Assembly (NCBI GenBank): GCA_030596395.1
Contig: JAUVKF010000008.1
Coordinates: forward strand, 188-64,187
Source of the DNA: Chlorobiota bacterium
GTDB taxonomy: Bacteria > Bacteroidota > Bacteroidia > Bacteroidales > F082
DNA: 64,000 nt
Direction of reading: 5' to 3'
Each line of letters begins with the position of its first letter. Positions within the stretch are counted from its first letter, which is position 1. Of this stretch, positions 46,717 through 61,000 are shown one piece after another. The position numbers were made by a program, and so were the translations under genes. The notes beneath the pieces are model-generated. The model had not been told where the DNA came from. It saw nothing but the letters and a program-made list of their open reading frames with translations, and did not search any database.

Positions 46717-47874
46717 ATGAATTTATTTGAAGGAAATATTTATTCAAAGCTTCCGGGTACCGGCACTTCCATATTTGCTGTGATGACAGGCCTGGCAAAA
46801 CAATATAATGCTGTTAATTTGTCACAGGGTTTTCCTGATTTTCCGGTTTCGCAGGAATTAATGGATAAGGTGTATTTCTATATGCAAGATGGTAATAATC
46901 AATATGCTCCCATGCCAGGAACACCTGGTCTGAGGAAGGCCATTTCTAAGATGTTTAAGCTAAACCATGGCGCGAATTACAATCCTGACTCGGAAGTCAA
47001 TATAACCGCCGGGGCTACCCAGGCTTTGTTTACAGCCATCTCCGCATTTATTAGTCACGGAGATGAGGTAATTGTTTTTGAACCGGCTTACGATAGTTAT
47101 GTGCCTGCCGTTGTTGTGAATGGCGGAATAGTCAGGTATAGCGAATTGCACTACCCTGATTATCGAATTAAATGGGATGAAGTGAAAAAACTGGTGAACG
47201 AAAAAACAAAAATGATAATAATAAATTCTCCACACAATCCTACCGGAAGCGTTTTGTACGAAGAGGATTTGAAGGCACTCGAACATCTTTTGAAAGGCAC
47301 TGATATTGTTGTGTTAAGCGATGAAGTTTACGAACACCTGATATTTGACGGGATACAACACCAAAGCGTTTGCCGGTTTCCCGACCTGTCACAACGAAGC
47401 CTTCTGGTGGGATCTTTCGGAAAAACTTTTCATGCAACAGGTTGGAAAATCGGGTTTGTGCTAGCACCCGAAAACCTGATGAAGGAATTCAGGAAAGTAC
47501 ACCAGTTTGTTGTATTTGCCGTGAATACACCTATCCAAATGGCTATTGGAGAATATCTGAATAATCCGGAAAACTATTCCGGTTTAGGCGAATTCTTTCA
47601 ACAAAAACGAGACTTTTTTGTAAATGCAGTTAAGGCATCAAGGTTTAAGGTGATTCCATCGTATGGCACTTATTTTCAATTGCTTGATTACAGCAATATC
47701 TCCGAGAAGAATGAGATGGAATTTGCTGAAGAACTGGTCAGTGAACACGGCATCGCATCGGTGCCGGTTTCACCGTTTTATCATGATAACAAAAGCAATA
47801 AAGCATTGCGATTTTGTTTTGCTAAAGAAGAATCAACCTTAACCAGGGCAGCAGGAATATTATGCAGGATTTAA
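46717..47874 (+). CDS. PLP-dependent aminotransferase, class I (methionine/glutamine aminotransferase YbdL-like)
   Basis: 385 aa. NLSQGFPDF, NSPHNPTG, and the PLP-lysine context SFGKTFHATGWKIG. Confidence 0.8.
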   Translation: MNLFEGNIYSKLPGTGTSIFAVMTGLAKQYNAVNLSQGFPDFPVSQELMDKVYFYMQDGNNQYAPMPGTPGLRKAISKMFKLNHGANYNPDSEVNITAGATQALFTAISAFISHGDEVIVFEPAYDSYVPAVVVNGGIVRYSELHYPDYRIKWDEVKKLVNEKTKMIIINSPHNPTGSVLYEEDLKALEHLLKGTDIVVLSDEVYEHLIFDGIQHQSVCRFPDLSQRSLLVGSFGKTFHATGWKIGFVLAPENLMKEFRKVHQFVVFAVNTPIQMAIGEYLNNPENYSGLGEFFQQKRDFFVNAVKASRFKVIPSYGTYFQLLDYSNISEKNEMEFAEELVSEHGIASVPVSPFYHDNKSNKALRFCFAKEESTLTRAAGILCRI

Positions 47875-48674
47875 AAGTATTGTGCTTACAATTGGACCTG
47901 GTTTGGGAAGACCCGGCCAAAAACCGGGAATTGTTTGAAATCAAGATCATAAACCATGTTGATGGGCACGACCTGATCATTTTACCTGAAACATTTACGA
48001 CAGGATTCCCGGATTTTCCTTCATTTATAAGTGAATCCATCGAAGGGGAAACCGTACAATGGATGGCCGGAGTGGCAAAAAAGGTCAATGCGGTGATTAC
48101 CGGTAGTCTGATAATCAATAACGATGGAAAATATACCAACACGCTGGTATGGATGCCGCCTGATGGTAATTTTTCAACTTACGATAAGCGCCACGTTTTT
48201 TCGATGGCAGGAGAAAATGAGGTAATTGAATACGGGCAAGAAGAGTTAATTATAGAATTAAACGGCTGGAAAATTAAACCCATGATCTGTTATGATCTGC
48301 GGTTCCCGGTATGGTCGAAAAATAAACTTGACAATCAGAAAAACTATGAATATGACCTTGCCCTTTACATTGCCAACTGGCCAGCCGTAAGAAACTATCC
48401 CTGGACTCAATTGCTTATTGCCCGCGCCATCGAAAACCTGGCCTATGTGATTGGTGTAAACCGAATTGGCTACGACAAAACCGGTAAACTCTACAGTGGC
48501 AATTCGATGGTCATTGACCCGAAAGGAAAAATACTGGCCGAAGCAGAAGAGGGTAAAGAGCGTGCACTAACAGAAATATTATCATATTCGGAGTTGCAGG
48601 CATTCCGGAAAAAATTCAATGTGGGTTTGGATTGGGATGGGTTTAATTTAAATGATTTGAACAAAATAATTTAG
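47862..48674 (+). CDS. Nitrilase-superfamily omega-amidase (YafV-like)
   Basis: Glu-Lys-Cys triad contexts ILPETF, YDKRHVF, MICYDLRFP. Overlaps the aminotransferase gene by 13 nt. Confidence 0.8.
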   Translation: MQDLKVLCLQLDLVWEDPAKNRELFEIKIINHVDGHDLIILPETFTTGFPDFPSFISESIEGETVQWMAGVAKKVNAVITGSLIINNDGKYTNTLVWMPPDGNFSTYDKRHVFSMAGENEVIEYGQEELIIELNGWKIKPMICYDLRFPVWSKNKLDNQKNYEYDLALYIANWPAVRNYPWTQLLIARAIENLAYVIGVNRIGYDKTGKLYSGNSMVIDPKGKILAEAEEGKERALTEILSYSELQAFRKKFNVGLDWDGFNLNDLNKII

Positions 48675-48843
48675 GTAAAATGAAATACTTTACAACTATT
48701 TCAGCATTATTTCTAAAATATGTTGTTAGCATATTTGGACAAATACTTAATAGAATTGTAGCATTTAATACAGTTTAATCACTATTGAAATTATAACAAT
48801 TTATTATATGGTCTTAGAAACGTATAGTGTTAAATTTATTTGA

Positions 48844-49173
48844 ATGGAATATAAAACGAGGCAACTAAGAAGAGAAGACCTCCCCAAAAATAGAAGATCG
48901 GCAGAGTCATTGCATTTACCGGTTCTATTTACCGGTCAATTAATGTACGTCTGTGATATTCACTTTACAGATGATGGTTTGTGTTGGCTTGAACAGGCTA
49001 AAGGAATTCCTACGCCTATTGCGAAATTGGATTTGGTTCTAAGCAGGAGTTCAAGTGAGATCAAGCAAGATATAAAAAGAAATAAACTAAAATTGAAACA
49101 AAATTCTGATCAAAAAGATATAATTTACAATAAGCTCAAACAACTTCAACGCGAATTAATGGAAACTATTTAG
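48844..49173 (+). CDS. Hypothetical small protein (islet ORF)
   Basis: 109-aa ORF in the AT-rich islet with a basic/coiled C-terminal half. Convergent with the MTase-HIT gene, stops 4 nt apart. No motif recognised. Confidence 0.35.
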   Translation: MEYKTRQLRREDLPKNRRSAESLHLPVLFTGQLMYVCDIHFTDDGLCWLEQAKGIPTPIAKLDLVLSRSSSEIKQDIKRNKLKLKQNSDQKDIIYNKLKQLQRELMETI

Positions 49174-49177
49174 ACCC

Positions 49178-50035
49178 TTATTTAGAAAAGATATTGCGAA
49201 TTCCACCACCAGCCTCAGGCAAATCGACATTAAATCTTGGTATGACATAAATATAAGCGTGTTCAACAGCTTGACCTCCCGCTTTTCCTATATTCATTCC
49301 GATATTAAACCCTTCAGCATTAAGTTTTTTTCTGAGCGTTTCTTGAACTCTATTTACGACCAACCAGCAAGCTGTTTGTTCATGTTGCGATAATTCAAAA
49401 TAATTCGCTATTTTTCTTTTTGGGATAACCAAAGTATGACCGGAAGATATAGGAAATTCTTCAACAATGGCAAATGCAGTTGCAGACTCAGTTATTAAAA
49501 TCTTTTCATCGATTCCTTTAAAAAATGGACTGATATTGACATTGCCTTTATTTAAGTGAGTGTAATGTTGATATTGATATATTTCGCAGTTCTCCGTTCG
49601 GAAAATGCTCTTGTAAGGTAATATAACATTGCATTGATAAGTTTTTGCTTTATATTTTGGATTAAATAAAAACCCGTTTCTTTTTATGTCACGTCTGACA
49701 GAAAAAAAAGCTTTTCCACCAGGCTTTAGTAATTCTGAAATTGCCATTAAAACGTGTGATTGTTCTTCTGGTAATAATACGTTTAGCACATAATTGCAGA
49801 TTATAGTATCAAATTTAGCTTTCGGATAGTTGGGCTTGTAATGTGGATCAAAACCAATAACTGCAAAGTCTTTTTCTTGAAGAAAGGCAACGTCTATCCC
49901 TAGACCACAGCCGAAATCAAGTACAGAACCATTGATTAATGCACGTTCCCATAGAGCTTTAACAGGTAAAGAAGGTTTCTTCCTCTCTTTAATTGTTAGA
50001 TGAGAATTTGGATTATCTTTTGATTGATAAATCAT
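49178..50035 (-). CDS. Fusion protein: class I SAM-methyltransferase domain + HIT-superfamily domain with a non-canonical triad
   Basis: N-terminal half: motif I VLDFGCGLGIDVAFL, acidic loop VIGFD, ICNYVLNVL, LKPGGKAFF. C-terminal half: HIT fold signature FAIVEEFPISSGHTLVIPKRK...NIGKAGGQAVEHAYIYVIPR. ATG 50035 overlaps the HNH gene stop (ATGA), which I prefer to the TTG at 50050 used by the ORF track. Confidence 0.7.
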   Translation of the reverse strand: MIYQSKDNPNSHLTIKERKKPSLPVKALWERALINGSVLDFGCGLGIDVAFLQEKDFAVIGFDPHYKPNYPKAKFDTIICNYVLNVLLPEEQSHVLMAISELLKPGGKAFFSVRRDIKRNGFLFNPKYKAKTYQCNVILPYKSIFRTENCEIYQYQHYTHLNKGNVNISPFFKGIDEKILITESATAFAIVEEFPISSGHTLVIPKRKIANYFELSQHEQTACWLVVNRVQETLRKKLNAEGFNIGMNIGKAGGQAVEHAYIYVIPRFNVDLPEAGGGIRNIFSK

Positions 50036-51135
50036 TTCTGATAAACCCAATTTTCTTGAAACCCCATATTCTTAGCTATTTGTAATTGTGGTTTTAAATT
50101 ATCCTGCATTCGAGTTGTAAATTCACCTTGCTTCATTGTATTTATCTCGCTAAGTGTTTGGTGAAAAAGTACTGAGTAATCCTCCAACAATTTGCTGTGT
50201 CCAGACATCTTCATTAGTACTGTGTGAAACGCATCGTACTGTAACGCAACATAGTCGTTGATGTAATTTACTGCTGGCAGATTATCGCTTTTCGAACTAT
50301 TCACTTCTTTTGGCGTTGGTACAAGGTTCCATAACTGGTCGTGCCCGGTAAAACTCCAAGGCAAGAAGTGGTCTATGCTATAACTGTCCTTCAGTATTGG
50401 TTGAGCTGAATAGATACACAATATGCTGACTTTGGTTGCGATGTATATATCCCAGAACTTTCTGGCATTCGTTAACTGACGCTGCTTTGGTGAAAACAGT
50501 TTTGTCGGTATATTCGCCACATTTGGATTGCGCTTTTGCAAATAGTTTATCAAATGCCAATAGGTAAACCCTTTCAGTATCTGCATGTGTTGCAGTAGGT
50601 AATCCTTCCATAGCGGACTAATCTCAATCGTATTGCCATCAGTAAATCGGTACAAACTGAGCTTGCGTACGTTTATAAAATCTCTATCAGCTCGTTCCAT
50701 TATTGCATTATTTACAAATTGGTCTTGCATTCCTCTCAGTTCGTCCGCAAACCAAGGCCGTAAAAAACGCTGGGGCACCCATCTGGATAACTTATGGGTC
50801 AGTTGACTTATCTCATACTTTTCTTTGTTTCGACCGAGTTGCTTTATCAATTCTGGTTTTTTAATGTCCTTAGGGTAACCAAACTTTTGTTGAATCTGTT
50901 TCACTGCATTTTCAAACTGGTCTTGCCTCCCAAAAGATAGCTTGAAGTAATTAATTGGATACCATACTTCTCCAATCATTTCAATTATTAAATCATCAAT
51001 ATTGATTTTCGTTACGCCAATTTTCACTTTTTCTAAAATGGCCAACAACCAGTAAAACTTATAAGAATTTGTAATATCGTTAAATGCAGCTGACAAATGA
51101 TTAACGGGTAAATCTGTGGATTTAGGCAGTTTCAT
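50032..51135 (-). CDS. HNH (Cas9-type, HNH_4-like) endonuclease with uncharacterised N-terminal domain
   Basis: The C-terminal motif SIDHFLPWSFTGHDQLWNLVPTPKEVNSSKSDNLP aligns residue-for-residue in pattern with the Cas9 HNH core (D-H-x-x-P-x-S-F...N-x-V...N-x-x-K-S-D-N-x-P). The N-terminal ~230 aa (LSAAFNDITNSYKFYWLLAILEKV...) match no domain I can name. Start taken at Met 51135 (MKLPKS). Confidence 0.7.
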   Translation of the reverse strand: MKLPKSTDLPVNHLSAAFNDITNSYKFYWLLAILEKVKIGVTKINIDDLIIEMIGEVWYPINYFKLSFGRQDQFENAVKQIQQKFGYPKDIKKPELIKQLGRNKEKYEISQLTHKLSRWVPQRFLRPWFADELRGMQDQFVNNAIMERADRDFINVRKLSLYRFTDGNTIEISPLWKDYLLQHMQILKGFTYWHLINYLQKRNPNVANIPTKLFSPKQRQLTNARKFWDIYIATKVSILCIYSAQPILKDSYSIDHFLPWSFTGHDQLWNLVPTPKEVNSSKSDNLPAVNYINDYVALQYDAFHTVLMKMSGHSKLLEDYSVLFHQTLSEINTMKQGEFTTRMQDNLKPQLQIAKNMGFQENWVYQK

Positions 51136-51321
51136 GATAAATATTCTTTTTTTAGCCAATATTGTCTGCAAGGAAAGGAATCGTGACCAGAGAAGGTTAA
51201 AGCATAGTTCATATTGGTAAAATTAAAAACATCTTGGTGTTAATTACTCCTTAGTTCCTTTCTAAATTCGAATTTAAACAAACGAAATGTAAATGACTGA
51301 CCGGATGATTTTCAAATATGC

Positions 51322-52720: not shown

Positions 52721-54184
52721 ATGTCTGAAAAGCGATTTATAAATATTTCGATTGTTGCCAGGGTGCTGAGCTTTCTGATGATTGTTGAGGCTCTTTTTAT
52801 GTTGACTGGCCTGCCTTTTGCCTGGTATTATAACGAATCATTCTGGCCTCTTTTAATCTCAGCGGTTATTACCGGAACAACGGGTAGCATTATTTGGTTT
52901 TCTATAAAACCAAAGATCAAGAAAAAAGGAATTGGTAAACGAGAAGGCTATCTGATCGTAACTTTAAGCTGGATTGTCATTTCCGGTTTCGGCACATTAC
53001 CTTATATCATCAGTGGTGCAATTCCATCCTTTACAAATGCTTATTTTGAAACCATTTCGGGTTTTACCACAACTGGAGCTTCAATTCTGAATGACATTGA
53101 AATGCTGCCGAATAATATCCTGTATTGGCGCGCCATGACACAATGGATGGGCGGCATGGGAATCATTGTTTTAACCGTAGCGGTACTTCCGTTTTTAGGG
53201 ATTGGTGGTATGCAATTATTGGTTGCCGAAATGCCCGGCATCACACCTGATAAATTGCATCCACGGATAACAGCCACAGCTAAAAGGTTGTGGGGAATAT
53301 ATGTGATATTTACACTAGCAGAATTGCTTTTACTTTGGCTTGGCGAAATGGATTTTTTCGATGCAATATGCCATGCATTTGCTACCATGGCCACAGGTGG
53401 ATTTTCAACCAAAAACGATAGTATTGCCGGATTCTCTTCTTATACACAATATGTGATCGTGTTTTTTATGATCCTTGCCGGTACAAATTTTACATTACAC
53501 TATTTAGGCTTACACCGGAAATTCAGGAAAGCGTGGAGCAATCAGGAATTCAAAGTTTATTTTTGGATAATCTTATTGGTAACCCTATTTATCTCTTTAG
53601 GACTGATTATATCCCGGGAAACCGGCATTGAAAACTCCTTCCGAGATGCTCTGTTTTCAGTTGTTTCAATTCTAACGACAACCGGGTTTGTAAACAGCAA
53701 TTATTTGCTGTGGCCATCTTTTTTATGGATGTTATTATTTGTGCTTATGTTTGTTGGAGGCAGTGCAGGGTCTACCGGGGGAGGCATGAAAATCGTCAGG
53801 CATTTATTGCTTTTTAAAAATTCATGGATTGAATTAAAAAGAGCCATGCATCCTAGCGCGATCATTCCGGTAAAATTTAATGGAAAAGCCGTTTCGCAGG
53901 ATATTATTTTTAATGTAATGGCCTTCTTTTTAATTTACATGATTGTTTTTGCCCTGGGGACGGTTGTAATGTCGATGGTTGGATTGGATTTTGAAACTTC
54001 GGTGGGAGCCACTATTGCTACTCTGGGTAATATAGGCCCAGGAATTGGTGGTGTTGGTCCGGTTGAGAATTATGCTTTTTTCGGCCCTTTTGCAAAATGG
54101 TTTTTATCATTTCTTATGCTACTTGGCCGATTGGAATTATTTACCGTATTGATAATTATTTCGCCTGCATTCTGGAAATCCTGA
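52721..54184 (+). CDS. trkH: Trk potassium uptake system membrane subunit TrkH
   Basis: 487 aa polytopic protein with repeated selectivity-filter-like TTTGAS / ATGGFS / TTTGF / GNIGPG loops. Confidence 0.88.
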   Translation: MSEKRFINISIVARVLSFLMIVEALFMLTGLPFAWYYNESFWPLLISAVITGTTGSIIWFSIKPKIKKKGIGKREGYLIVTLSWIVISGFGTLPYIISGAIPSFTNAYFETISGFTTTGASILNDIEMLPNNILYWRAMTQWMGGMGIIVLTVAVLPFLGIGGMQLLVAEMPGITPDKLHPRITATAKRLWGIYVIFTLAELLLLWLGEMDFFDAICHAFATMATGGFSTKNDSIAGFSSYTQYVIVFFMILAGTNFTLHYLGLHRKFRKAWSNQEFKVYFWIILLVTLFISLGLIISRETGIENSFRDALFSVVSILTTTGFVNSNYLLWPSFLWMLLFVLMFVGGSAGSTGGGMKIVRHLLLFKNSWIELKRAMHPSAIIPVKFNGKAVSQDIIFNVMAFFLIYMIVFALGTVVMSMVGLDFETSVGATIATLGNIGPGIGGVGPVENYAFFGPFAKWFLSFLMLLGRLELFTVLIIISPAFWKS

Positions 54185-54186
54185 TT

Positions 54187-54801
54187 TCAGAATTTACCTC
54201 TGTATCTTCCTTTGTTTCCAAAAATATATCCAACATTGAACTCCATCACAATACCACTCCCATACCGTCTTTTTAAAAAAGTGTCAATGGCCTGATTGGT
54301 TGAACCGGAAAGTAGCGATATGTTATCAATAACCTGGATGGCATAACCCATTGTGAACATCACAAAAAACCCTTTGTTTAATACAAATTCGGCACCCACT
54401 ACAATTTGAATAAACGAAGATGGAAGCACCTCAACAATTGCAGTTGTGCCACTTGTTGAATCAGTTATTTCTAATGCCTGGTCTGTTAATCCGGTTGAAT
54501 AGATATACCCCACCCCTACAATTGGACTAAAGTTTTTTTCAAGGATAATATACCTTAACCGACCTGAAAACTTGAAACCACTCATTGCGATTCCGGCGCC
54601 TGCATCCAGTCCAAAATGAGGTGTGATATAATATTGCAAAGTAGCACCAACACCCACAAGCCCATTCCATCCCAAACTACCACTCACACCAAGGGTTCGT
54701 GTCAACCGAACAGGTAATTTCAATTCACCAAAATTTATTTGGTTTTGGGCGGAAGTTGAAGTTAGGACTGTAGAAAGTAAAACGATGAAAAGTAACCTCA
54801 T
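54187..54801 (-). CDS. Putative outer-membrane beta-barrel protein
   Basis: Signal peptide LLSTVLTSTSAQ, Gly/aromatic-rich alternating strands, C-terminal Phe (RYRGKF). Confidence 0.5.
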   Translation of the reverse strand: MRLLFIVLLSTVLTSTSAQNQINFGELKLPVRLTRTLGVSGSLGWNGLVGVGATLQYYITPHFGLDAGAGIAMSGFKFSGRLRYIILEKNFSPIVGVGYIYSTGLTDQALEITDSTSGTTAIVEVLPSSFIQIVVGAEFVLNKGFFVMFTMGYAIQVIDNISLLSGSTNQAIDTFLKRRYGSGIVMEFNVGYIFGNKGRYRGKF

Positions 54802-54928
54802 TGAAATTTTAAATAATGGAACTCCAAATTTATCTTAATTATTTGGGAAATAAAAAGCATCATGATTATTAATACCAATCAAGGATTAAATTACGCCAAA
54901 CGTTGACAAAAAATGCTGATTGGCACGA

Positions 54929-54990
54929 GGTACGTGGTGCGGGTCAGTGAGTTATGAAAACAATTTACCCGCAACCCGCATCCACGCACC
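54929..54990. other. GC-rich long imperfect hairpin in a divergent intergenic region
   Basis: ggtacgtggtgcgggt (54929-54944) pairs with acccgca-tccacgcacc (54974-54990), giving about 16 bp with one mismatch and one bulge. The right arm is preceded by a tandem copy of acccgca. The GC content stands out against the AT-rich spacer. Confidence 0.45.
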
Positions 54991-55138
54991 CCGTAACCTA
55001 AATTCATCCAGTTAAAAACAAATTAATAATCAGTGGTTAATTTTAACTCTTGGTTTGTATAATTAATATTCATCGTAGAACAAAGTTTGAATTCAATTGC
55101 AGCCAACTTTTTATACTTTTGACTTCAATAAACCCGAA

Positions 55139-55888
55139 ATGATCAAACTGTCGGTTGTCATAATTACCCTTAACGAAGAACGTAATATTAGCCGTTGTCT
55201 TGAATCGGTAAAGGATATTGCTGACGATCTGGTAATTATTGATTCCTTTTCAACCGACAGGACGAAAGAGATAGCCGAAACATTTGGAGCCAGGTTTATT
55301 ACACAAAGATTTGACGGATATATTAATCAGAAAAACTTTGCAAATGCACAGGCAAAGTTTGATCATATCCTGTCGCTTGATGCCGATGAGGTTTTGTCGG
55401 ATGAATTGAGAGAATCGGTAAAAGAAGTAAAATCCAATTTTGATGCTGATGGCTATACCATGAACCGCCTGACTAACTATGTTGGAAAATGGGTAAGGCA
55501 TTGCGGTTGGTACCCTGATAAAAAGCTACGCGTGTTCGACCGCCGGCAAGGAAAATGGGAAGGCCTGATCATTCATGAGGAGTTTAAATTGGCAGAAGGA
55601 GGAAAATCCAGACACCTGAAAGGAGATTTATTGCATTACTCTTTTAACTCGATAATTGAATACAAACAACAATCTGAAAAATTCACAACACTCGGAGCCG
55701 AAGCTGACTTTCAGAAAGGGAAAAAGGCACCTTTTTACAAAATTTGGTTAGCGCCAACAGTCAAATTTGTTCAGTGTTATTTTATCAGGCTTGGTTTTCT
55801 GGATGGTAAAACCGGGTTTACGATCTGTCGTCTTTCAGCTACAGCTACTCATCATAAGTATATTAAATTAAAACAATTATACAAATAA
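55139..55888 (+). CDS. Family 2 glycosyltransferase (LPS-core type)
   Basis: MIKLSVVIITLNEERNI...IIDSFSTD...SLDADE (DxD-type). ATG 55139 is preferred over the TTG at 55097. Confidence 0.8.
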   Translation: MIKLSVVIITLNEERNISRCLESVKDIADDLVIIDSFSTDRTKEIAETFGARFITQRFDGYINQKNFANAQAKFDHILSLDADEVLSDELRESVKEVKSNFDADGYTMNRLTNYVGKWVRHCGWYPDKKLRVFDRRQGKWEGLIIHEEFKLAEGGKSRHLKGDLLHYSFNSIIEYKQQSEKFTTLGAEADFQKGKKAPFYKIWLAPTVKFVQCYFIRLGFLDGKTGFTICRLSATATHHKYIKLKQLYK

Positions 55889-55890
55889 AA

Positions 55891-56904
55891 TTGAAACATC
55901 CCGGACGTATAATCATTAGCCGTACCGACAGCATTGGCGATGTTGTACTAACATTGCCGATGGCCGGGGCACTTAAAGAAATCAACCCGGGTTGTAAGAT
56001 CATTTTTCTGGGTCGCGATTACACCAGGGATGTTGTTTCATTGTCAAAATATGTGGATGAATTTGCCAGTTGGGACGATGTCAGGGGATTGACAATTCAG
56101 GAAAAGGTAAAATGGATAAAAAATTTAAATGCAGATGTCATCATCCATGTTTTTCCAAGGCCGGATATTGCCAGAATAAGTAAGTCGGCAAAGATTCCTG
56201 TACGGATTGGGGCATCGGGAAGACTTTATCATTACCTGAATTGCAATAAAATTGTGCCGTTAAGCCGAAAAAATTCTGACTTGCATGAAGCACAGCTCAA
56301 TTTCAAATTACTGAAACCCTTTTCAGATCGCCTGGTTTTACCATCCATTGAGAAAATAGCCGGTTATTACGGAATTGTACCAGACAAAAAATCAAATAAA
56401 AAGATTGATAAGCTTATCGACCAGACAAGGTTCAACCTGATATTACATCCTAAATCAAAAGGCAGCGCCCGCGAATGGCCAATGGAACATTACAGCGAAC
56501 TCATCAGCTTATTGCCAAAGGAGAAGTTTAAGATTTTTGTTACAGGAACAACAGAAGAAGGTCAACTGATTAAAAGTTTCCTCCAGGAGAATAAAGATCA
56601 AATGACTGACCTTACCGGCCGGTTCTCATTGACTGAATTGATTGACTTCATTCAAAAATGCGATGGTTTGGTGGCAGCAAGTACCGGTCCGCTTCATTTG
56701 GCTGCTGCTTTAGGGAAACTGGCTGTGGGACTTTATCCTCCGATACAGCCCATGCATCCCGATAGGTGGGCTCCTATCGGACAGAACGCTTATTACCTGG
56801 TTACAAATAAAAAATGCAGTGATTGCAGGAAATCCTTAAATTGCCGATGCATGAATGAGATCTTACCACAACAAGTAGCAAACTTAATTGTAAAAAATGC
56901 TTGA
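55891..56904 (+). CDS. Family 9 glycosyltransferase (heptosyltransferase-like)
   Basis: RIIISRTDSIGDVVLTLP N-terminus and C-terminal GLVAASTGPLHLAAALG motif. TTG start. Confidence 0.75.
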   Translation: MKHPGRIIISRTDSIGDVVLTLPMAGALKEINPGCKIIFLGRDYTRDVVSLSKYVDEFASWDDVRGLTIQEKVKWIKNLNADVIIHVFPRPDIARISKSAKIPVRIGASGRLYHYLNCNKIVPLSRKNSDLHEAQLNFKLLKPFSDRLVLPSIEKIAGYYGIVPDKKSNKKIDKLIDQTRFNLILHPKSKGSAREWPMEHYSELISLLPKEKFKIFVTGTTEEGQLIKSFLQENKDQMTDLTGRFSLTELIDFIQKCDGLVAASTGPLHLAAALGKLAVGLYPPIQPMHPDRWAPIGQNAYYLVTNKKCSDCRKSLNCRCMNEILPQQVANLIVKNA

Positions 56905-57871
56905 TAATAAAAAGAATACAGATCAATGGCTGGTGGTTGTCAACCCACATGCCGGCAGTAAAAAGTGCCAGCGCGACTGGCCCGATATCAGGAAACACCT
57001 TGAAAAAGCTGATTTTAGTATGCATTGTATTTTTACTGAGCGTCAATTTCATGCCATTGAACTGGTAAAAATGCATATTGAAGAAGAGGGATTTACAAAA
57101 ATTCTTGTTGTAGGTGGCGATGGCACGCTGAATGAAACTGTAAATGGTATTTTTAAGCAGCAAAGATTTAAGACAAATGACATCACAATTGGAGTGATCA
57201 CGGTTGGAACCGGAAACGACTGGGGCAGGATGTATGAAATGCCTGAATCATACAAAAAGCAGGTTAAGCTCTTGACGAATGGATATACTATTCTACAAGA
57301 TGTGGGTGAGGTTGAGTATCGTCATGCCGTGGATGAAGAAAAGCGTTACTTCATCAATATTGCCGGAATGGGATATGATGCGTTGGTTGCGAAGAAAACC
57401 AATCTCATGAAACAAAAGGGTAAAGGTGGGGCATTGGCTTATTTAATCAACCTGATCTCGGGCTTGTTTCAATACAAAAATACACACCTGCAAATTGTTT
57501 CCGATGGGAAGCAGCTATTTTCCGGCAAAGTATTCAGTATAAGCATTGGCATTTGTAAATACAATGGCGGCGGCATGATGCAGTTGCCCAACGCCATACC
57601 TGATGACGGACTTTTCGATATTACAGTTATCCGAAAGACCACCAAATACCGCATTGTAACCAACATCAAAAACCTGTATGATGGTTCATTCGTAAGCATG
57701 CCGGAAGTAGAACAATACAGAGGTGAAAAAATTTCAATCACCTCAAAACCCCCTCAGAAATTGTACCTCGAAACCGATGGCGAGTCCCTGGGACATTCAC
57801 CGCTGGATTTTAAAGTAATCCCAAAAGCGATCAGACTGATTGTGAGGAAGAAGTATTCGGTGGTAGATTAA
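56897..57871 (+). CDS. Diacylglycerol/lipid kinase family protein (YegS-like)
   Basis: VVNPHAGS...ILVVGGDGTLNETVNG...GTGNDW catalytic-domain motifs. Overlaps the GT9 gene by 8 nt. Confidence 0.8.
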   Translation: MLDNKKNTDQWLVVVNPHAGSKKCQRDWPDIRKHLEKADFSMHCIFTERQFHAIELVKMHIEEEGFTKILVVGGDGTLNETVNGIFKQQRFKTNDITIGVITVGTGNDWGRMYEMPESYKKQVKLLTNGYTILQDVGEVEYRHAVDEEKRYFINIAGMGYDALVAKKTNLMKQKGKGGALAYLINLISGLFQYKNTHLQIVSDGKQLFSGKVFSISIGICKYNGGGMMQLPNAIPDDGLFDITVIRKTTKYRIVTNIKNLYDGSFVSMPEVEQYRGEKISITSKPPQKLYLETDGESLGHSPLDFKVIPKAIRLIVRKKYSVVD

Positions 57872-58007
57872 AAAAACAGCATAAAGTAGTTTTCAATTAG
57901 CTCCTTTATTTGCTGATTCGTTGTTTCAATAAAACCTTTGGCATCTTTTATTAATTTCGCAGCGTTTTTCAATGCTGGAAATCAGCGCAATTAACAACGA
58001 ATTAATT

Positions 58008-61000
58008 ATGGGATACGATTTCGGGAAAATCGAAAAAAAGTGGCAGAAATTCTGGAAAGAAAACAAAACCTTCAAAGCATATAATAATTCCGACAAACCA
58101 AAATATTATGTGCTGGATATGTTTCCTTATCCATCAGGTGCTGGCCTGCACGTGGGTCACCCGCTTGGTTACATAGCATCCGATATTTATGCGCGTTACA
58201 AACGTCACCAGGGTTTTAATGTGCTGCACCCAATGGGTTATGATGCATACGGCCTTCCGGCAGAACAATACGCCATCCAAACCGGAACACATCCCGATAT
58301 CACCACCAACAAGAACATTGATAAATACCGCCAACAGCTCGACCACATTGGATTTTCGTACGATTGGGATCGTGAAGTAAGGACCAGTGATCCGTTTTAC
58401 TATAAATGGACACAATGGACCTTTATCCAGTTATTCAAATCATGGTACGATAACAATACAGGCAAAGCCAAAAGTGTTGACGGACTGATCAAAGAATTTG
58501 AGAAGAATGGGAATACTGGGGTAAACGCTGCATGCGATGAAGTTGAGCCATTTACGGCAGAAGACTGGAATAATTGGAATGAATCCGAACAACAACAGCT
58601 ATTGATGCATTACCGTCTTGCCTACCTTTCGGATACTATGGTGAACTGGTGTCCGGCATTGGGAACCGTTTTAGCCAACGATGAAGTTAAAGATGGATTT
58701 TCTGAACGTGGTGGGCACCCGGTAGAAAAGAAACTGATGAAGCAATGGTCGTTGAGGATAACTGCTTATGCTCAGCGTCTGCTTGATGGACTCGAAAAGA
58801 TTGATTGGTCCGAAAATGTAAAAGAGATTCAGCGCAACTGGATTGGCAGGAGCGAGGGGGCGAGTGTTGTTTTTGGCCTCTCCCCAACCCTCTCCACAGG
58901 AGAGGGAGTTGTTCCCCGATATCAAACTGCTGATAAGAAAACATGGCCCTTCATTAAGAATTCAATGCTTGAAGGACGACACAACCCAACTAAAGCAGAA
59001 GCCTTGATTTGGGATAAGCTTAGAAACAAGAGAATTGGTTATAAAATCAGGCGTCAACATGTTATTGATACATATATTCCTGATTTTGTTTGCTTAAGCA
59101 AAAAAACGGTAATTGAAATTGACGGAGGAATTCACGACAAACCTGATCAAAAAGAATATGATAATTTTCGAACAAAAAAACTTGAAGAACTTGGATTTAG
59201 TGTAATAAGATTCAAGAATGAAGAAGTTTTTAAAGAAATTGAAAATGTAGTAAATAGCATTAAAAAATATCTGGACAACAAAATTGTTGATTCTGAATCT
59301 TACAATGAAAACTTGACTTTTCCCTCCCCTGATGGGGAGGGCCAGGGTGGGGCAATAGAAGTCTTCACCACCCGCCCTGATACTCTCTTCGGCGCAACCT
59401 TCATGGTTCTTGCTCCTGAACATGAGCTGATTGATCAGATTACTACACTTGAGCAAAAAGAAAAAGTAGAAAAATATGTAAGGAGGGCAAAAAACCGCTC
59501 AGAACGCGAAAGAATGACCGAGGTAAAAAACATCACAGGCGTATTTACCGGAGCTTATGCTATTAATCCTTTGAATGGAGAAGAAATTCCGATCTGGACT
59601 GCCGATTATGTGTTGATGGGATACGGAACCGGGGCAATCATGGCGGTTCCCGGTCACGATAGCCGTGACTTTGCCTTTGCGCGTCATTTTAAGCTGCCCA
59701 TCATCCAGGTTGTGTCCAAAAAAGGTGAAGAACCAACCGATCCGTCAACCTGGGACGACAGCTACGATTCCAAAGAGGGTATTATGATCAATTCTGGTTT
59801 TATCAATGGCATGGATGTGACCAAAGCCATCAGGGCTACCATTGATGAATTGGAAGTCCTGGGAATTGGCTACGGAAAAATTAACTATCGTTTACGTGAT
59901 GCAATTTTCAGCCGCCAGCGGTATTGGGGCGAGCCTTTCCCAATCTATTACAAAAATGGTATGCCTTATCCATTGGACGAAAGCGAATTGCCTTTAAAAT
60001 TACCGCTGGTTGATAAGTATCTCCCGACTGAAAGTGGTGAACCACCCCTGGCAAGAGCAAAAAACTGGAAAACCAAAGAAGGTTATCCGCTCGAAACTAA
60101 TACCATGCCCGGTTTTGCCGGATCAAGCGGATATTATCTTAGGTATATGGACCCATGGAACGACAAGGAATATTTCTCAAAAGAAGCTAATCAATACTGG
60201 CGTAGTATTGACCTTTACCTTGGTGGTGATGAGCATGCAACCGGCCATTTGATTTACTCTCGTTTCTGGAACAAATTCCTGTTCGACCTGGGTCTGGTTT
60301 GCGAAGATGAACCTTATAAAAAATTGATCAACCAGGGTAAAATACAGGGCAGGTCGAGTTTTGTCTACCGCATTCAGGGGAAAAACCTGTTTGTATCGTT
60401 TGGTTTGAGAAAAAATTACGAAACACAAGCTTTGCATGTGGATATCAACATGGTGAATAACGATATACTTGACATCGAAGCCTTCAAAAACTGGCGGCCT
60501 GAATTTGCTGATGCAGAATTTATACTGGAGGATGGAAAATACATCTGTGGCCACGAGGTGGAGAAAATGTCGAAGTCAAAACTAAACACACAGAGTCCTG
60601 ATGATTTGATCCATAAATACGGGGCTGATACTTTGAGGTTGTACGAAATGTTCCTTGGACCTTTGGAACAGCACAAGCCATGGGACACAAAGGGAATTGA
60701 AGGTGTATTCAGATTTTTACGAAAACTCTGGCGCCTGTATTTTGACGATAATGATAATTTGATCATTACAGATAAGAAACCAACTGAAGATGAACAAAAG
60801 GTAATCCATAAAACCATTAAAAAAGTTCAAAGTGATATCAAGCGTTTTTCATTCAACACAGGGGTCAGCGCTTTTATGATCTGTGTTAACGAACTGTCTG
60901 ACCTCAAATGCCACAAACGGGAAGTGCTTGAACCGCTGTTGGTTTTGCTTGCACCCTATGCGCCGCATATTGCTGAGGAATTATGGGAAGCAACCGGCCA

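What the first reader, a model, noticed from the sequence alone, without database searches (positions are those of the whole stretch)
49178..50035. Methyltransferase-HIT fusion whose histidine triad is H-x-Y-x-Y
The C-terminal domain has the HIT fold signature (FPISSGHTLVIPKRK ... GGQAVEHAYIYVIPR). Anchoring on the conserved V-I-P-R, the canonical H-phi-H-phi-H becomes H264-A-Y266-I-Y268 (codons at 49247-49261). The middle His is the nucleotidyl-accepting nucleophile in Hint/Fhit/aprataxin, so this domain is either catalytically dead (a nucleotide-binding sensor?) or uses a different chemistry. Fusing such a domain to a SAM-methyltransferase is, to my knowledge, undescribed.
Basis: partly seen in the sequence, partly recalled or inferred. 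Interest (0 to 1): 0.7.

Follow-up and report, generated by a model that had tools for sequence, protein, structure and literature searches.

The report
Decayed HIT domain in orphaned defence remnant
The odd H-x-Y-x-Y "histidine triad" is real, but it is a recent, lineage-private loss of the catalytic histidines in a decaying leftover of a DNA-phosphorothioation-linked nuclease/methyltransferase island, not a new kind of enzyme.

Summary

The interpretation mostly does not hold.
- The fusion is widespread: over 550 species genomes carry it, and NCBI already names it "bifunctional ... methyltransferase/HIT".
- The middle His is invariant in the 120 best homologues. The 94%-identical nearest relative reads H-A-H-I-H.
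- The two Tyr codons are therefore private C>T changes.

The gene is the second half of a conserved HNH-nuclease + MT-HIT pair. About a quarter of such loci sit inside Ssp/Dnd DNA-phosphorothioation clusters.

In the window the modification genes are gone. A 24-codon sspB relic abuts the HNH start. Close relatives show every stage of loss:
- sspD kept but MT-HIT frameshifted;
- MT-HIT deleted, leaving HNH alone;
- the whole island absent.

dN/dS against the nearest relative is 0.09 for the MTase half and 0.75 for the HIT half. Canonical pairs give 0.00-0.17 for HIT.

Verdict: a catalytically dead, eroding HIT domain in an orphaned remnant. The Y-x-Y itself is of low interest. The uncharacterised phosphorothioation-linked HNH/MT-HIT module is a moderate lead.

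The parts
49178..50035 (-). MT-HIT gene: 285 aa plus stop. N-terminal class-I SAM methyltransferase fused to a C-terminal HIT domain.
   Evidence: ORF list and sequence. Pfam Methyltransf_23 and HIT. 120 full-length homologues at 54-94% identity.
49541..50035 (-). Methyltransferase half (residues 1-165). It is intact, with every family-conserved residue retained.
   Evidence: Conservation table. dN/dS 0.09 against L001. HMM score 273 bits against a canonical mean of 279 +/- 12.
49181..49540 (-). HIT half (residues 166-285). The fold is kept, the catalytic residues are lost and the C-terminal tail is degenerate.
   Evidence: Pfam HIT 6.7e-18. dN/dS 0.75 against L001. HMM score 176 bits against a canonical minimum of 211. 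pLDDT below 50 over segments 276-279 and 281-285.
49247..49261 (-). Triad codons CAC GCT TAT ATT TAT = H259-A-Y261-I-Y263. The Tyr codons differ from L001's CAT and CAC by C>T at 49255 and 49249, with a further C>T at 49247.
   Evidence: Sequence. Nucleotide comparison with L001. Register confirmed against solved HIT proteins.
50032..51141 (-). Partner gene: a 369-aa HNH endonuclease (Cas9-type HNH core at about residues 240-295 plus N-terminal helical domains). Its stop overlaps the MT-HIT start as ATGA.
   Evidence: Pfam HNH_4 5.7e-12. All positions conserved in >=85% of homologues are retained. It lies directly upstream in 131 of 143 loci. dN/dS 0.12-0.16.
51132..51212 (-). Relic of sspB (DUF4007): MNYALTFSGHDSFPCRQYWLKKEYLS*. 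This is the first ~24 codons of the Ssp DNA-binding/nicking component, ending at the HNH start.
   Evidence: tblastn of four SspB proteins, E 3e-05 to 5e-05, 57-75% identity over 20-26 aa. The same junction occurs in L167/L168, and a relic plus an intact sspD-like gene occurs in L166.
48844..49173 (+). Small convergent ORF of 109 aa inside the island. Function unknown.
   Evidence: Conserved in L001 with dN/dS 0.22. No Pfam, NCBIfam or PADLOC family above threshold.
48646..51305 (.). The variable island as a whole. Two close relatives lack it, and there CN_hydrolase abuts trkA. An 8-nt TTTCTAAA lies near each edge (48710-48717 and 51259-51266).
   Evidence: blastn of L171/L172 (91-95% nt) stops at 48645 and resumes at 51306. 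The 8-mer occurs 9 times in the window, which is chance level.

Best explanation
The gene is a degenerate copy of a widespread two-gene module: an HNH endonuclease followed by a translationally coupled methyltransferase-HIT protein. That module is an accessory of Ssp/Dnd DNA-phosphorothioation (PT) systems.

In this Bacteroidota lineage the PT-writing genes were deleted, leaving a 24-codon sspB stump. What remains is being lost piecemeal. The HIT half is no longer under normal purifying selection, and in the window's lineage two C>T transitions turned the nucleophilic His and the third His into Tyr. The domain therefore cannot form the covalent His-NMP intermediate that all HIT hydrolases and transferases use. 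It is catalytically dead. The methyltransferase half and the HNH gene are still constrained and probably still work.

Shown by tool results:
- the sequence, the triad register and the private nature of Y-x-Y;
- the contrast in selection between the two domains;
- the sspB relic and the stages of loss in relatives;
- the linkage of the module to PT genes.

Inferred:
- that loss of the PT writer is what relaxed selection on the HIT half;
- that in intact systems the HIT domain removes or transfers a nucleotidyl (AMP) group on a DNA end or nucleotide connected with PT chemistry, while HNH is the nuclease.
For: 1. Y-x-Y is private to the window.
- The middle His is in 120 of 120 homologues and the third His in 97%.
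- The nearest relative P0001/L001 (94% aa, 93.7% nt) has HAHIHVIP. The differences are C>T at 49255 and 49249.

2. Relaxation is specific to the HIT half.
- Window against L001: omega is 0.09 for MT and 0.75 for HIT. That is 4 nonsynonymous and 10 synonymous codons against 13 and 3, Fisher p=0.0086.
- About 140 canonical pairs at 80-97% identity give omega for HIT of 0.00-0.17.
- Both lineages hit highly conserved HIT columns. The window has H261Y, H263Y and P275A. L001 has P195S, G246R, D271N and G277S.

3. The whole clade is affected.
- In P0002-P0006, H200 becomes P or N, the third His becomes Q or K, and the C-terminal tail is truncated.
- HIT HMM scores are 130-176 bits against a canonical minimum of 211. 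MT scores are normal at 270-277 bits.

4. The locus is decaying.
- An sspB relic lies upstream of HNH.
- L166 keeps an sspD-like gene, but its MT-HIT has two frameshifts.
- L167, L168 and L169 carry HNH alone, with MT-HIT deleted; L165 carries an HNH gene interrupted near its 5' end (called as 318 aa), again with no MT-HIT.
- L171 and L172, at 91-95% nt identity, lack the whole island.

5. The module is linked to PT systems.
- HNH lies directly upstream in 131 of 143 loci.
- DndC (TIGR03183, 417 bits against a cut-off of 290), DndD, DUF4007/SspB (1.8e-80), SspC-like, SspD-like, DndFGH and SspH lie next to the pair in 43 of 164 loci.

6. The HIT half has been lost elsewhere too.
- The nucleophile His was lost independently in L053 (Ser) and L080 (Gly).
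- MT-only relatives, or relatives with a truncated HIT, exist.
Against: - The HIT half has no stop or frameshift in the window. Over the longer window-L082 comparison its omega is 0.245, so some constraint persists and the domain may keep a non-catalytic role.
- Both catalytic His residues are hit within only 17 aa differences. Under uniform substitution this has a probability of about 0.003, or about 0.009 within the HIT half. That is more targeted than simple drift predicts and could mean selection for inactivation.
- The window-L001 omega rests on 16 variable codons.
- About three quarters of family loci have no PT gene within 5-8 kb, and some degenerate HIT copies (L030, L053) sit beside complete sspBCD. 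Loss of the PT writer is therefore not the only route to HIT erosion.
- The biochemical role of the intact module is unknown. No paper was found.
Confidence: 0.72

Rival explanations
1. Pseudoenzyme. The HIT domain has lost catalysis but is kept as a nucleotide-binding or dimerising scaffold for the methyltransferase, so the Y-x-Y form is functional in a non-catalytic way.
For: - The reading frame is intact over 120 codons and the AF2 model is a confident HIT fold, with pLDDT 84-96 over most of residues 170-250 apart from a dip to 75 around 191-200.
- The long-term omega for HIT, window against L082, is 0.245, below neutrality.
- Seven clade members keep a HIT-like domain despite losing key residues.
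- From general knowledge: HIT domains are obligate dimers, and the Fhit H96N mutant still binds substrate.
Against: - Nucleotide-contacting and family-invariant positions are being lost in different ways in each lineage (H200 to P or N, tail truncations, G246R, D271N).
- The recent omega is 0.75.
- Relatives dispense with the domain, or with the whole gene.
- The C-terminal tail is poorly predicted in the window protein.
Confidence: 0.2
2. Adaptive inactivation. After the PT-writing genes were lost, HIT activity became harmful, for example by licensing the HNH nuclease or processing unmodified DNA. Knocking out the two catalytic His residues was positively selected.
For: - Both catalytic His residues changed within a 94%-identical pair, with a chance probability of about 0.003-0.009 under uniform substitution.
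- Three C>T changes cluster within 9 nt.
- The PT writer is demonstrably gone.
- Other clade members disabled the domain at other key residues.
Against: - The sister lineage L001 kept H-x-H-x-H while accumulating other damaging changes.
- HNH persists under purifying selection with or without MT-HIT, so no toxicity link is evident.
- Once the first His is lost, the second is free to drift.
- Degenerate HIT copies also occur beside intact sspBCD.
Confidence: 0.15
3. Sequencing or assembly artefact: the true sequence has His at both positions.
For: - Both changes are C>T, a common damage or error class.
- No second sequence carrying Y-x-Y was found.
Against: - Three substitutions within 9 nt lie in an otherwise clean ORF.
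- The neighbouring genes are intact.
- The whole clade shows independent real erosion of the same domain.
- Overall divergence from L001 is 6% with a normal substitution spectrum.
Confidence: 0.03
4. New chemistry: Tyr261 acts as the nucleophile, giving a Tyr-nucleotidyl intermediate in an H-x-Y-x-Y HIT variant.
For: Only general knowledge that Tyr can carry nucleotidyl or phosphoryl groups in other enzyme classes. No tool result supports it.
Against: - Y-x-Y is found in one sequence only.
- The selection pattern is relaxed, not conserved.
- The surrounding active-site residues and the tail are degenerating.
Confidence: 0.01

Closest known systems
HIT superfamily hydrolases and phosphorylases (Fhit, Hint, bacterial HIT proteins 3imi/1y23/2eo4, Ap4A phosphorylase Rv2613c)
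   Same: Same fold and motif register. The profile reaches E 2e-20 against 3imi. Foldseek gives probability 1.0 against Fhit and other HIT structures. The best NCBIfam similarity is the Rv2613c-type 'ATP adenylyltransferase'.
   Different: The nucleophilic middle His and the third His are Tyr. The domain is fused behind a methyltransferase. Canonical relatives carry a family-specific C-terminal tail (GD..NP.GG.R.VIP), which is degenerate here.
The MT-HIT family itself, auto-annotated by NCBI as 'bifunctional class I SAM-dependent methyltransferase/HIT family protein'
   Same: Full-length homology at 54-94% identity. The HNH partner lies upstream in the same way. The methyltransferase motifs are the same.
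   Different: The window copy has lost the catalytic His residues. It belongs to a subclade with an eroding HIT half. Its ssp neighbours have been deleted.
PT-linked restriction and accessory modules: DndFGH, SspE, SspFGH, the HKD+SF2-helicase 'dnd_restrict_1' (TIGR04095) with 'dnd_rel_methyl' (TIGR04096), and wHTH(SBD)+SAD+HNH (ScoMcrA-type) nucleases (PMC10853773)
   Same: It is a nuclease-containing gene set embedded in or beside dnd/ssp modification operons. The methyltransferase N-terminus resembles TIGR04096 (1.9e-14). The same HIT subfamily is fused to PLD+SF2-helicase proteins.
   Different: None of the described modules contains a HIT domain or this HNH architecture. The TIGR04096 score of 53 bits is far below its cut-off of 150. 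The HNH N-terminal domains show no detectable match to the ScoMcrA sulfur-binding domain. The pair co-occurs with DndFGH or SspH rather than replacing them.
Inactive enzyme domains in PT-linked defence proteins, for example the eroded DAM methyltransferase domain of DndH (PMC10853773)
   Same: It is a precedent for a catalytically dead enzyme fold being retained in this kind of system.
   Different: The DndH dead domain is conserved family-wide. Here the dead HIT is private to one lineage and is accompanied by relaxed selection.
NitFhit (nitrilase-Fhit fusion, 1ems)
   Same: It is the top Foldseek hit through its Fhit half. A CN_hydrolase gene happens to flank the island at 47862-48674.
   Different: The adjacency is coincidental. 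CN_hydrolase is a housekeeping flank that stays in place in relatives lacking the island. It lies on the opposite strand.

Membership tests
HIT superfamily (PF01230) | Sequence and fold match to the HIT domain | tested here: met
   Pfam 65.6 bits against a cut-off of 21.5. PDB phmmer 6e-15 to 2eo4. AF2 model with Foldseek matches to Fhit and 3imi.
HIT superfamily (PF01230) | H-phi-H-phi-H-phi-phi motif with the middle His as nucleotidyl acceptor | tested here: not met
   The motif is H259-A-Y261-I-Y263-V-I. The register is fixed by gap-free alignments to solved HIT proteins.
HIT superfamily (PF01230) | Nucleotide hydrolase or transferase activity through a covalent His-NMP intermediate | not testable with these tools
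   This needs an enzyme assay. It is predicted absent because the nucleophile is missing (established HIT mechanism).
MT-HIT fusion family ('bifunctional class I SAM-dependent methyltransferase/HIT family protein') | Full-length two-domain homology | tested here: met
   120 best hits at E 1e-179 to 1e-102 with 93-100% query coverage.
MT-HIT fusion family ('bifunctional class I SAM-dependent methyltransferase/HIT family protein') | HNH endonuclease gene immediately upstream on the same strand | tested here: met
   Window 50032-51141 overlaps the MT-HIT start. The same arrangement is seen in 131 of 143 loci.
MT-HIT fusion family ('bifunctional class I SAM-dependent methyltransferase/HIT family protein') | Family-invariant HIT residues (H200, K206, Q255, H259, H261, H263) and the conserved C-terminal tail | tested here: not met
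   The window reads HKQHYY at these positions, whereas 106 of the 116 sequences in the alignment (115 locus genes plus the window) read HKQHHH. The tail departs from consensus at P275A and elsewhere. The HIT HMM score is below every canonical member.
Class I SAM-dependent methyltransferase | Rossmann-type fold with motif I (GxGxG) and an acidic residue after strand 2, with profile scores above cut-off | tested here: met
   LDFGCGLGID and GFDP are retained. Methyltransf_23 scores 51.6 bits against a cut-off of 27, and Methyltransf_12/25/11 are above cut-off. All family-conserved MT residues are kept.
Class I SAM-dependent methyltransferase | SAM binding and methyl transfer; identity of the substrate | not testable with these tools
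   No DNA-methyltransferase family was hit, only a weak PADLOC MTase_II match at E 0.007. The substrate is unknown.
TIGR04096 dnd_rel_methyl (DNA phosphorothioation-associated putative methyltransferase) | Score above the curated cut-off over the full 478-position model | tested here: not met
   53.3 bits against a cut-off of 150. Only residues 12-87 match model positions 5-82. The protein is related to this family but is not a member.
Ssp/Dnd DNA phosphorothioation system (locus level) | PT-writing genes (sspBCD or dndCD, plus a cysteine desulfurase) in the locus | tested here: not met
   Only a 24-codon sspB relic is present. No other PT gene occurs anywhere in the 64-kb window by tblastn. 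The feature is met in 38 of 164 related loci.
Classical type II restriction-modification pair (nuclease plus protective DNA methyltransferase) | The nuclease depends on the cognate methyltransferase for host protection, and DNA-methyltransferase motifs are present | tested here: not met
   HNH persists alone under purifying selection (omega 0.13-0.15) where MT-HIT is deleted. The methyltransferase is of the small-molecule type (Methyltransf_11/12/23/25).
ScoMcrA-type SBD-HNH PT-sensing nuclease | N-terminal sulfur-binding (wHTH) domain | tested here: inconclusive
   The AF2 model has pLDDT 92.7, but Foldseek against the PDB finds only the Cas9-type HNH core (best E 0.014). A whole-chain search may miss a small domain.

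The most novel reading that the evidence does not exclude
The HNH + MT-HIT pair is an uncharacterised accessory or effector module of Ssp/Dnd DNA-phosphorothioation systems. It is found next to dndCD, sspBCD, DndFGH and SspH, and sometimes lies between sspB and sspD. Its HIT domain would process a nucleotidylated (AMP-linked) DNA end or nucleotide generated during PT chemistry, and its methyltransferase would act on the same substrate. On this reading the window captures a natural experiment: once the PT writer is deleted, HIT activity is the first function to become dispensable or harmful, then the whole MT-HIT gene, while the HNH nuclease survives on its own.
Probability: 0.35. Interest if true: 0.6.

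Novelty: new member of a known kind. Interest (0 to 1): 0.3.

Why it matters
The H-x-Y-x-Y motif is not a new HIT chemistry, so it should not be followed up as such.

Two things are still useful.

1. The analysis exposes a widespread and apparently unstudied two-gene module, an HNH nuclease plus a methyltransferase-HIT protein. It is present in over 550 species genomes, mostly Bacteroidota, Chloroflexota and Ignavibacteriota. It is strongly linked to DNA phosphorothioation systems. A related HIT subfamily is also fused to HKD-helicase restriction proteins. That makes it a concrete candidate for a missing component of PT-based defence.

2. The locus gives an ordered series of natural decay states. 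These suggest which parts depend on which: the HIT half depends on something lost with the PT writer, and HNH depends on neither.

Tried and rejected
- **Exact look-up of the window's proteins.** Neither MT-HIT nor TrkA is on record.
- **Exact-pattern scan of metagenome contigs** for the triad region, allowing His or Tyr codons: 0 hits. The follow-up protein-guided scan found only relatives at 62% identity or less. No second Y-x-Y allele and no read-level check was possible.
- **HNH N-terminus as a ScoMcrA-like sulfur-binding domain.** Foldseek gave no match beyond the HNH core, so this is not claimed.
- **A TIGR04096-like methyltransferase beside the HIT-PLD-helicase fusion protein P0350.** The upstream 235-aa protein is unrelated, with hhalign probability 0.1%.
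- **NitFhit-like functional link with the neighbouring CN_hydrolase.** Rejected: it is a conserved flank that remains in relatives lacking the island.
- **Classical R-M pair.** Rejected because HNH persists without the methyltransferase.
- **The small ORF 48844-49173 as a remnant of the abhydrolase** found at that position in L082 and L166: no similarity.
- **The 8-nt repeat TTTCTAAA at both island edges** as a deletion or insertion signature. It occurs at chance frequency in the window, so it is only noted.
- **Literature searches** for HIT with phosphorothioation, HNH, methyltransferase or defence found no description of the module. PMC10853773 and PMC12839542 describe PT and BREX components but not this pair.
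Full report
**1. The observation**

Window 49178-50035 (-) is an intact ORF of 285 aa from its ATG. The ATG is the likely start. Homologues begin MIY..., and the ATG overlaps the stop of the upstream gene as ATGA.

Pfam finds a class-I SAM methyltransferase (Methyltransf_23, residues 25-114, 51.6 bits) and a HIT domain (residues 178-269, 6.7e-18). The motif reads GGQAVE-H259-A-Y261-I-Y263-VIPR, with codons at 49247-49261.

The register is not an alignment artefact.
- The window's own HIT part aligns without gaps to solved HIT proteins. 'ehayiyvipr' lies over 'hlhvhiip' of 2eo4 and over 'ehlhvhvvpr' of the Ap4A phosphorylase Rv2613c.
- The family profile does the same with 3imi, Fhit and others.
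- An AF2 model (pLDDT 89.4) superposes on Fhit and other HIT structures.

**2. Is Y-x-Y a property of a family?**

It is not. The two-domain protein is common.
- 1291 proteins match at E<=0.001, and the 120 best are all full-length at 54-94% identity.
- NCBI names several of them 'bifunctional class I SAM-dependent methyltransferase/HIT family protein'.
- A scan of one genome per species found at least 558 genomes with a relative. They come from Bacteroidota, Chloroflexota, Ignavibacteriota and other phyla.

In the 120 best homologues the middle His is invariant and the third His is present in 97%. The nearest relative, P0001 on metagenome contig L001, is 94% identical in protein and 93.7% in DNA. 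It reads H-A-H-I-H. The window differs from it by C>T at 49255 and 49249, with a further C>T at 49247.

**3. Selection**

Between the window and L001, dN/dS is 0.09 for the methyltransferase half and 0.75 for the HIT half. The counts are 4 nonsynonymous and 10 synonymous codons against 13 and 3 (Fisher p=0.0086).

As a baseline I used about 140 pairs of canonical family members at 80-97% identity. They give 0.00-0.17 for the HIT half and typically 0.03-0.16 for the MT half.

Both sister lineages have replaced residues at highly conserved HIT columns.
- The window has H261Y, H263Y and P275A.
- L001 has P195S, G246R, D271N and G277S.

Constraint on the HIT half was therefore already relaxed before the two lineages split.

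The whole subclade around the window (P0001-P0006, at least 74% identity) shows the same pattern.
- H200 of the conserved GH is replaced by P or N.
- The third His is replaced by Q or K.
- The conserved C-terminal tail is truncated.
- The MT half is nearly invariant.

I scored the clade with HMMs trained on canonical members. Its MT halves score 270-277 bits, against a canonical mean of 279 +/- 12. Its HIT halves score 130-176 bits, below the minimum of 211 among 76 held-out canonical sequences.

Over the longer window-L082 comparison the HIT omega is 0.245. Some constraint, possibly structural, has therefore persisted.

**4. Context: a conserved HNH + MT-HIT pair linked to DNA phosphorothioation**

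The upstream gene (50032-51141, -) encodes a 369-aa HNH endonuclease (HNH_4, 5.7e-12). All of its family-conserved residues are intact.

Across 164 related loci, an HNH homologue lies directly upstream on the same strand in 131 of the 143 loci with enough sequence. No other neighbour is conserved.

In about a quarter of loci the pair is embedded in, or adjacent to, phosphorothioation (PT) genes.
- DndC: TIGR03183, 417 bits against a cut-off of 290.
- DndD: 265 bits against a cut-off of 246.
- Cysteine desulfurase.
- DUF4007/SspB (1.8e-80), a large SspC-like ATPase, and a PAPS-reductase-type SspD-like protein. The DUF4007 = SspB equivalence follows PMC12839542.
- The PT-dependent restriction sets DndFGH and SspH.

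In total, 43 of 164 loci carry such genes, and 19 of the 67 loci with at least 5 kb on both sides.

Three further observations fit this context.
- The MT N-terminus resembles TIGR04096, the 'DNA phosphorothioation-associated putative methyltransferase'. The score is far below the cut-off (53 against 150 bits).
- In L004 the MT-HIT protein carries an extra REase_MTES_1575/DUF559 nuclease domain.
- The same HIT subfamily, with its C-terminal tail, also stands alone. It is also fused to PLD(HKD)+SF2-helicase restriction-type proteins and to an RHS core.

I found no paper describing this pair. The comparative-genomics treatment of PT systems mentions HNH nucleases but not HIT.

**5. The window copy is an orphaned, decaying remnant**

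Immediately upstream of the HNH start, at 51132-51212 (-), lies 'MNYALTFSGHDSFPCRQYWLKKEYLS*'. This is the first ~24 codons of sspB, followed by a stop. It matches four SspB proteins at 57-75% identity (E about 3e-05 to 5e-05). No other PT gene occurs anywhere in the 64-kb window.

Relatives at the same chromosomal site, next to the CN_hydrolase and aminotransferase genes, show the other stages of loss.
- **L166** (HNH 70% identical) keeps an sspB relic and an intact sspD-like gene. Its MT-HIT has two frameshifts, with 'DY' in place of GH200 and a triad reading H-T-H-I-K.
- **L167 and L168** (HNH 82% identical) share the window's sspB/HNH junction. They have no MT-HIT at all, and HNH abuts CN_hydrolase.
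- **L165 and L169** carry HNH next to an IS200 remnant and have no MT-HIT; in L169 the HNH gene is intact, in L165 it is interrupted near its 5' end and called as 318 aa.
- **L171 and L172**, two metagenome contigs 91-95% identical to the window's flanks, lack the whole island. Homology stops at 48645 and resumes at 51306, and CN_hydrolase is followed directly by trkA.

HNH remains under purifying selection (omega 0.12-0.16), including against the lineages without MT-HIT. It therefore does not depend on the methyltransferase, and the pair is not a classical restriction-modification couple.

By its TrkA relatives, the host is an uncultured Bacteroidota bacterium, close to Bacteroidales/Marinilabiliales.

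**6. Explanation**

The Tyr-for-His changes remove the nucleophile that every HIT enzyme uses to form its covalent nucleotidyl intermediate. This mechanism is established knowledge for Hint, Fhit, GalT and aprataxin. The domain is therefore catalytically dead.

The evidence favours erosion over a new functional variant:
- the motif is private to one lineage;
- selection is relaxed in the HIT half only;
- the whole clade shows the same degeneration;
- the locus as a whole is decaying.

I infer, but have not shown, that loss of the PT-writing genes is what made HIT activity dispensable. Two observations caution against this. Degenerate HIT copies also occur beside complete sspBCD (L030, L053), and most family loci have no PT gene nearby.

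Loss of the nucleophile has happened independently elsewhere: L053 has H-x-S-x-F and L080 has H-x-G-x-H. Relatives with only the MT half, or with a truncated HIT, also exist. The HIT half is the more expendable part of the protein.

**7. Rivals**

- **Retained non-catalytic role.** The ORF is intact and the long-term omega is below 1, so this cannot be excluded (about 0.2).
- **Selection for inactivation.** Both catalytic His residues were hit within only 17 differences, a chance of about 0.003-0.009. This leaves room for selection (about 0.15).
- **Sequencing error.** It is unlikely, given three changes in 9 nt and the real erosion across the clade, but it is untestable without reads (about 0.03).
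- **Tyr-based chemistry.** Nothing supports it (about 0.01).

**8. Novelty and verdict**

The finding as stated is a degenerate member of an already auto-annotated family. Interest in the Y-x-Y motif itself is low.

The by-product is more interesting. It is an apparently uncharacterised, widespread HNH + MT-HIT module tied to Ssp/Dnd phosphorothioation systems, with a natural series of decay states that suggests an order of functional dependency.

Overall interest is 0.3. The most novel reading not excluded is that this is a new PT accessory or effector module whose HIT activity is coupled to PT chemistry. I give it a probability of about 0.35 and an interest of about 0.6 if true.

Noticed in passing
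window 51132-51212 (-): A 24-codon relic of sspB (DUF4007) ends in a stop right at the HNH start codon. It shows that Ssp phosphorothioation genes were deleted here. The same junction occurs in L167/L168, and L166 has a relic plus an intact sspD-like gene.
   Followed up: yes
window ~48646-51305; L171 8111-8217; L172: The whole 2.7-kb island (small ORF, MT-HIT, HNH, sspB relic) is absent from two contigs that are 91-95% identical in the flanks. An 8-nt TTTCTAAA lies near both edges (48710-48717 and 51259-51266), but this 8-mer occurs at chance frequency in the window.
   Followed up: yes
window 48844-49173 (+): A 109-aa ORF convergent with MT-HIT lies inside the island. It is conserved in L001 with dN/dS 0.22 and has no family match above threshold in Pfam, NCBIfam or PADLOC. 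Its function is unknown.
   Followed up: partly
P0350, P0347, P0351, P0352, P0360 (HIT-PLDc_2-ResIII/helicase); P0364 (HIT + RHS core); L170 1515-4706: The same HIT subfamily, including its C-terminal GD..NP.GG.R.VIP tail, is fused to the N-terminus of HKD-nuclease + SF2-helicase restriction-type proteins and to an RHS core. It also occurs as a stand-alone protein of about 130 aa. This suggests a mobile HIT module in conflict systems.
   Followed up: partly
L024 2081-2629; also L037 9312-9863 and L076 9311-9865: A Tpt1/KptA RNA 2'-phosphotransferase gene (PF01885, 8.8e-54) lies next to MT-HIT in 4 loci. It is another enzyme that processes nucleic-acid ends.
   Followed up: no
L004 8001-9683 (and L088): Here the MT-HIT protein has an extra C-terminal REase_MTES_1575/DUF559 (Vsr-like) nuclease domain. 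The gene sits between sspB/HNH and an sspD-like gene, followed by a TIGR04095-like restriction enzyme.
   Followed up: partly
L048 9858-16538; L014 11642-16759: DndF, DndG and DndH (PADLOC, up to 1172 bits) or SspH (993 bits) lie directly beside the HNH/MT-HIT pair. The pair therefore co-occurs with the known PT-dependent restriction modules rather than replacing them.
   Followed up: partly
L167 271-1374; L169 711-1814; L165 894-1850: Solo HNH genes persist where MT-HIT is deleted. dN/dS against the window is 0.13-0.15 for L167 and L169. In L165 and L169 an IS200-type Y1 transposase remnant lies upstream; the L165 copy is interrupted near its 5' end.
   Followed up: partly
window 53014-58861 vs L171 1085-6929: This roughly 5.8-kb block is inverted between the window and the close relative L171, so there is a local rearrangement downstream of trkA.
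   Followed up: no
window 50032-51141 (-), residues 1-220 of the HNH protein: The N-terminal helical domains are predicted with high confidence (pLDDT 92.7 overall). They contain invariant Y27, K28, W31 and W60 but have no detectable PDB structural match. What they recognise is unknown.
   Followed up: partly
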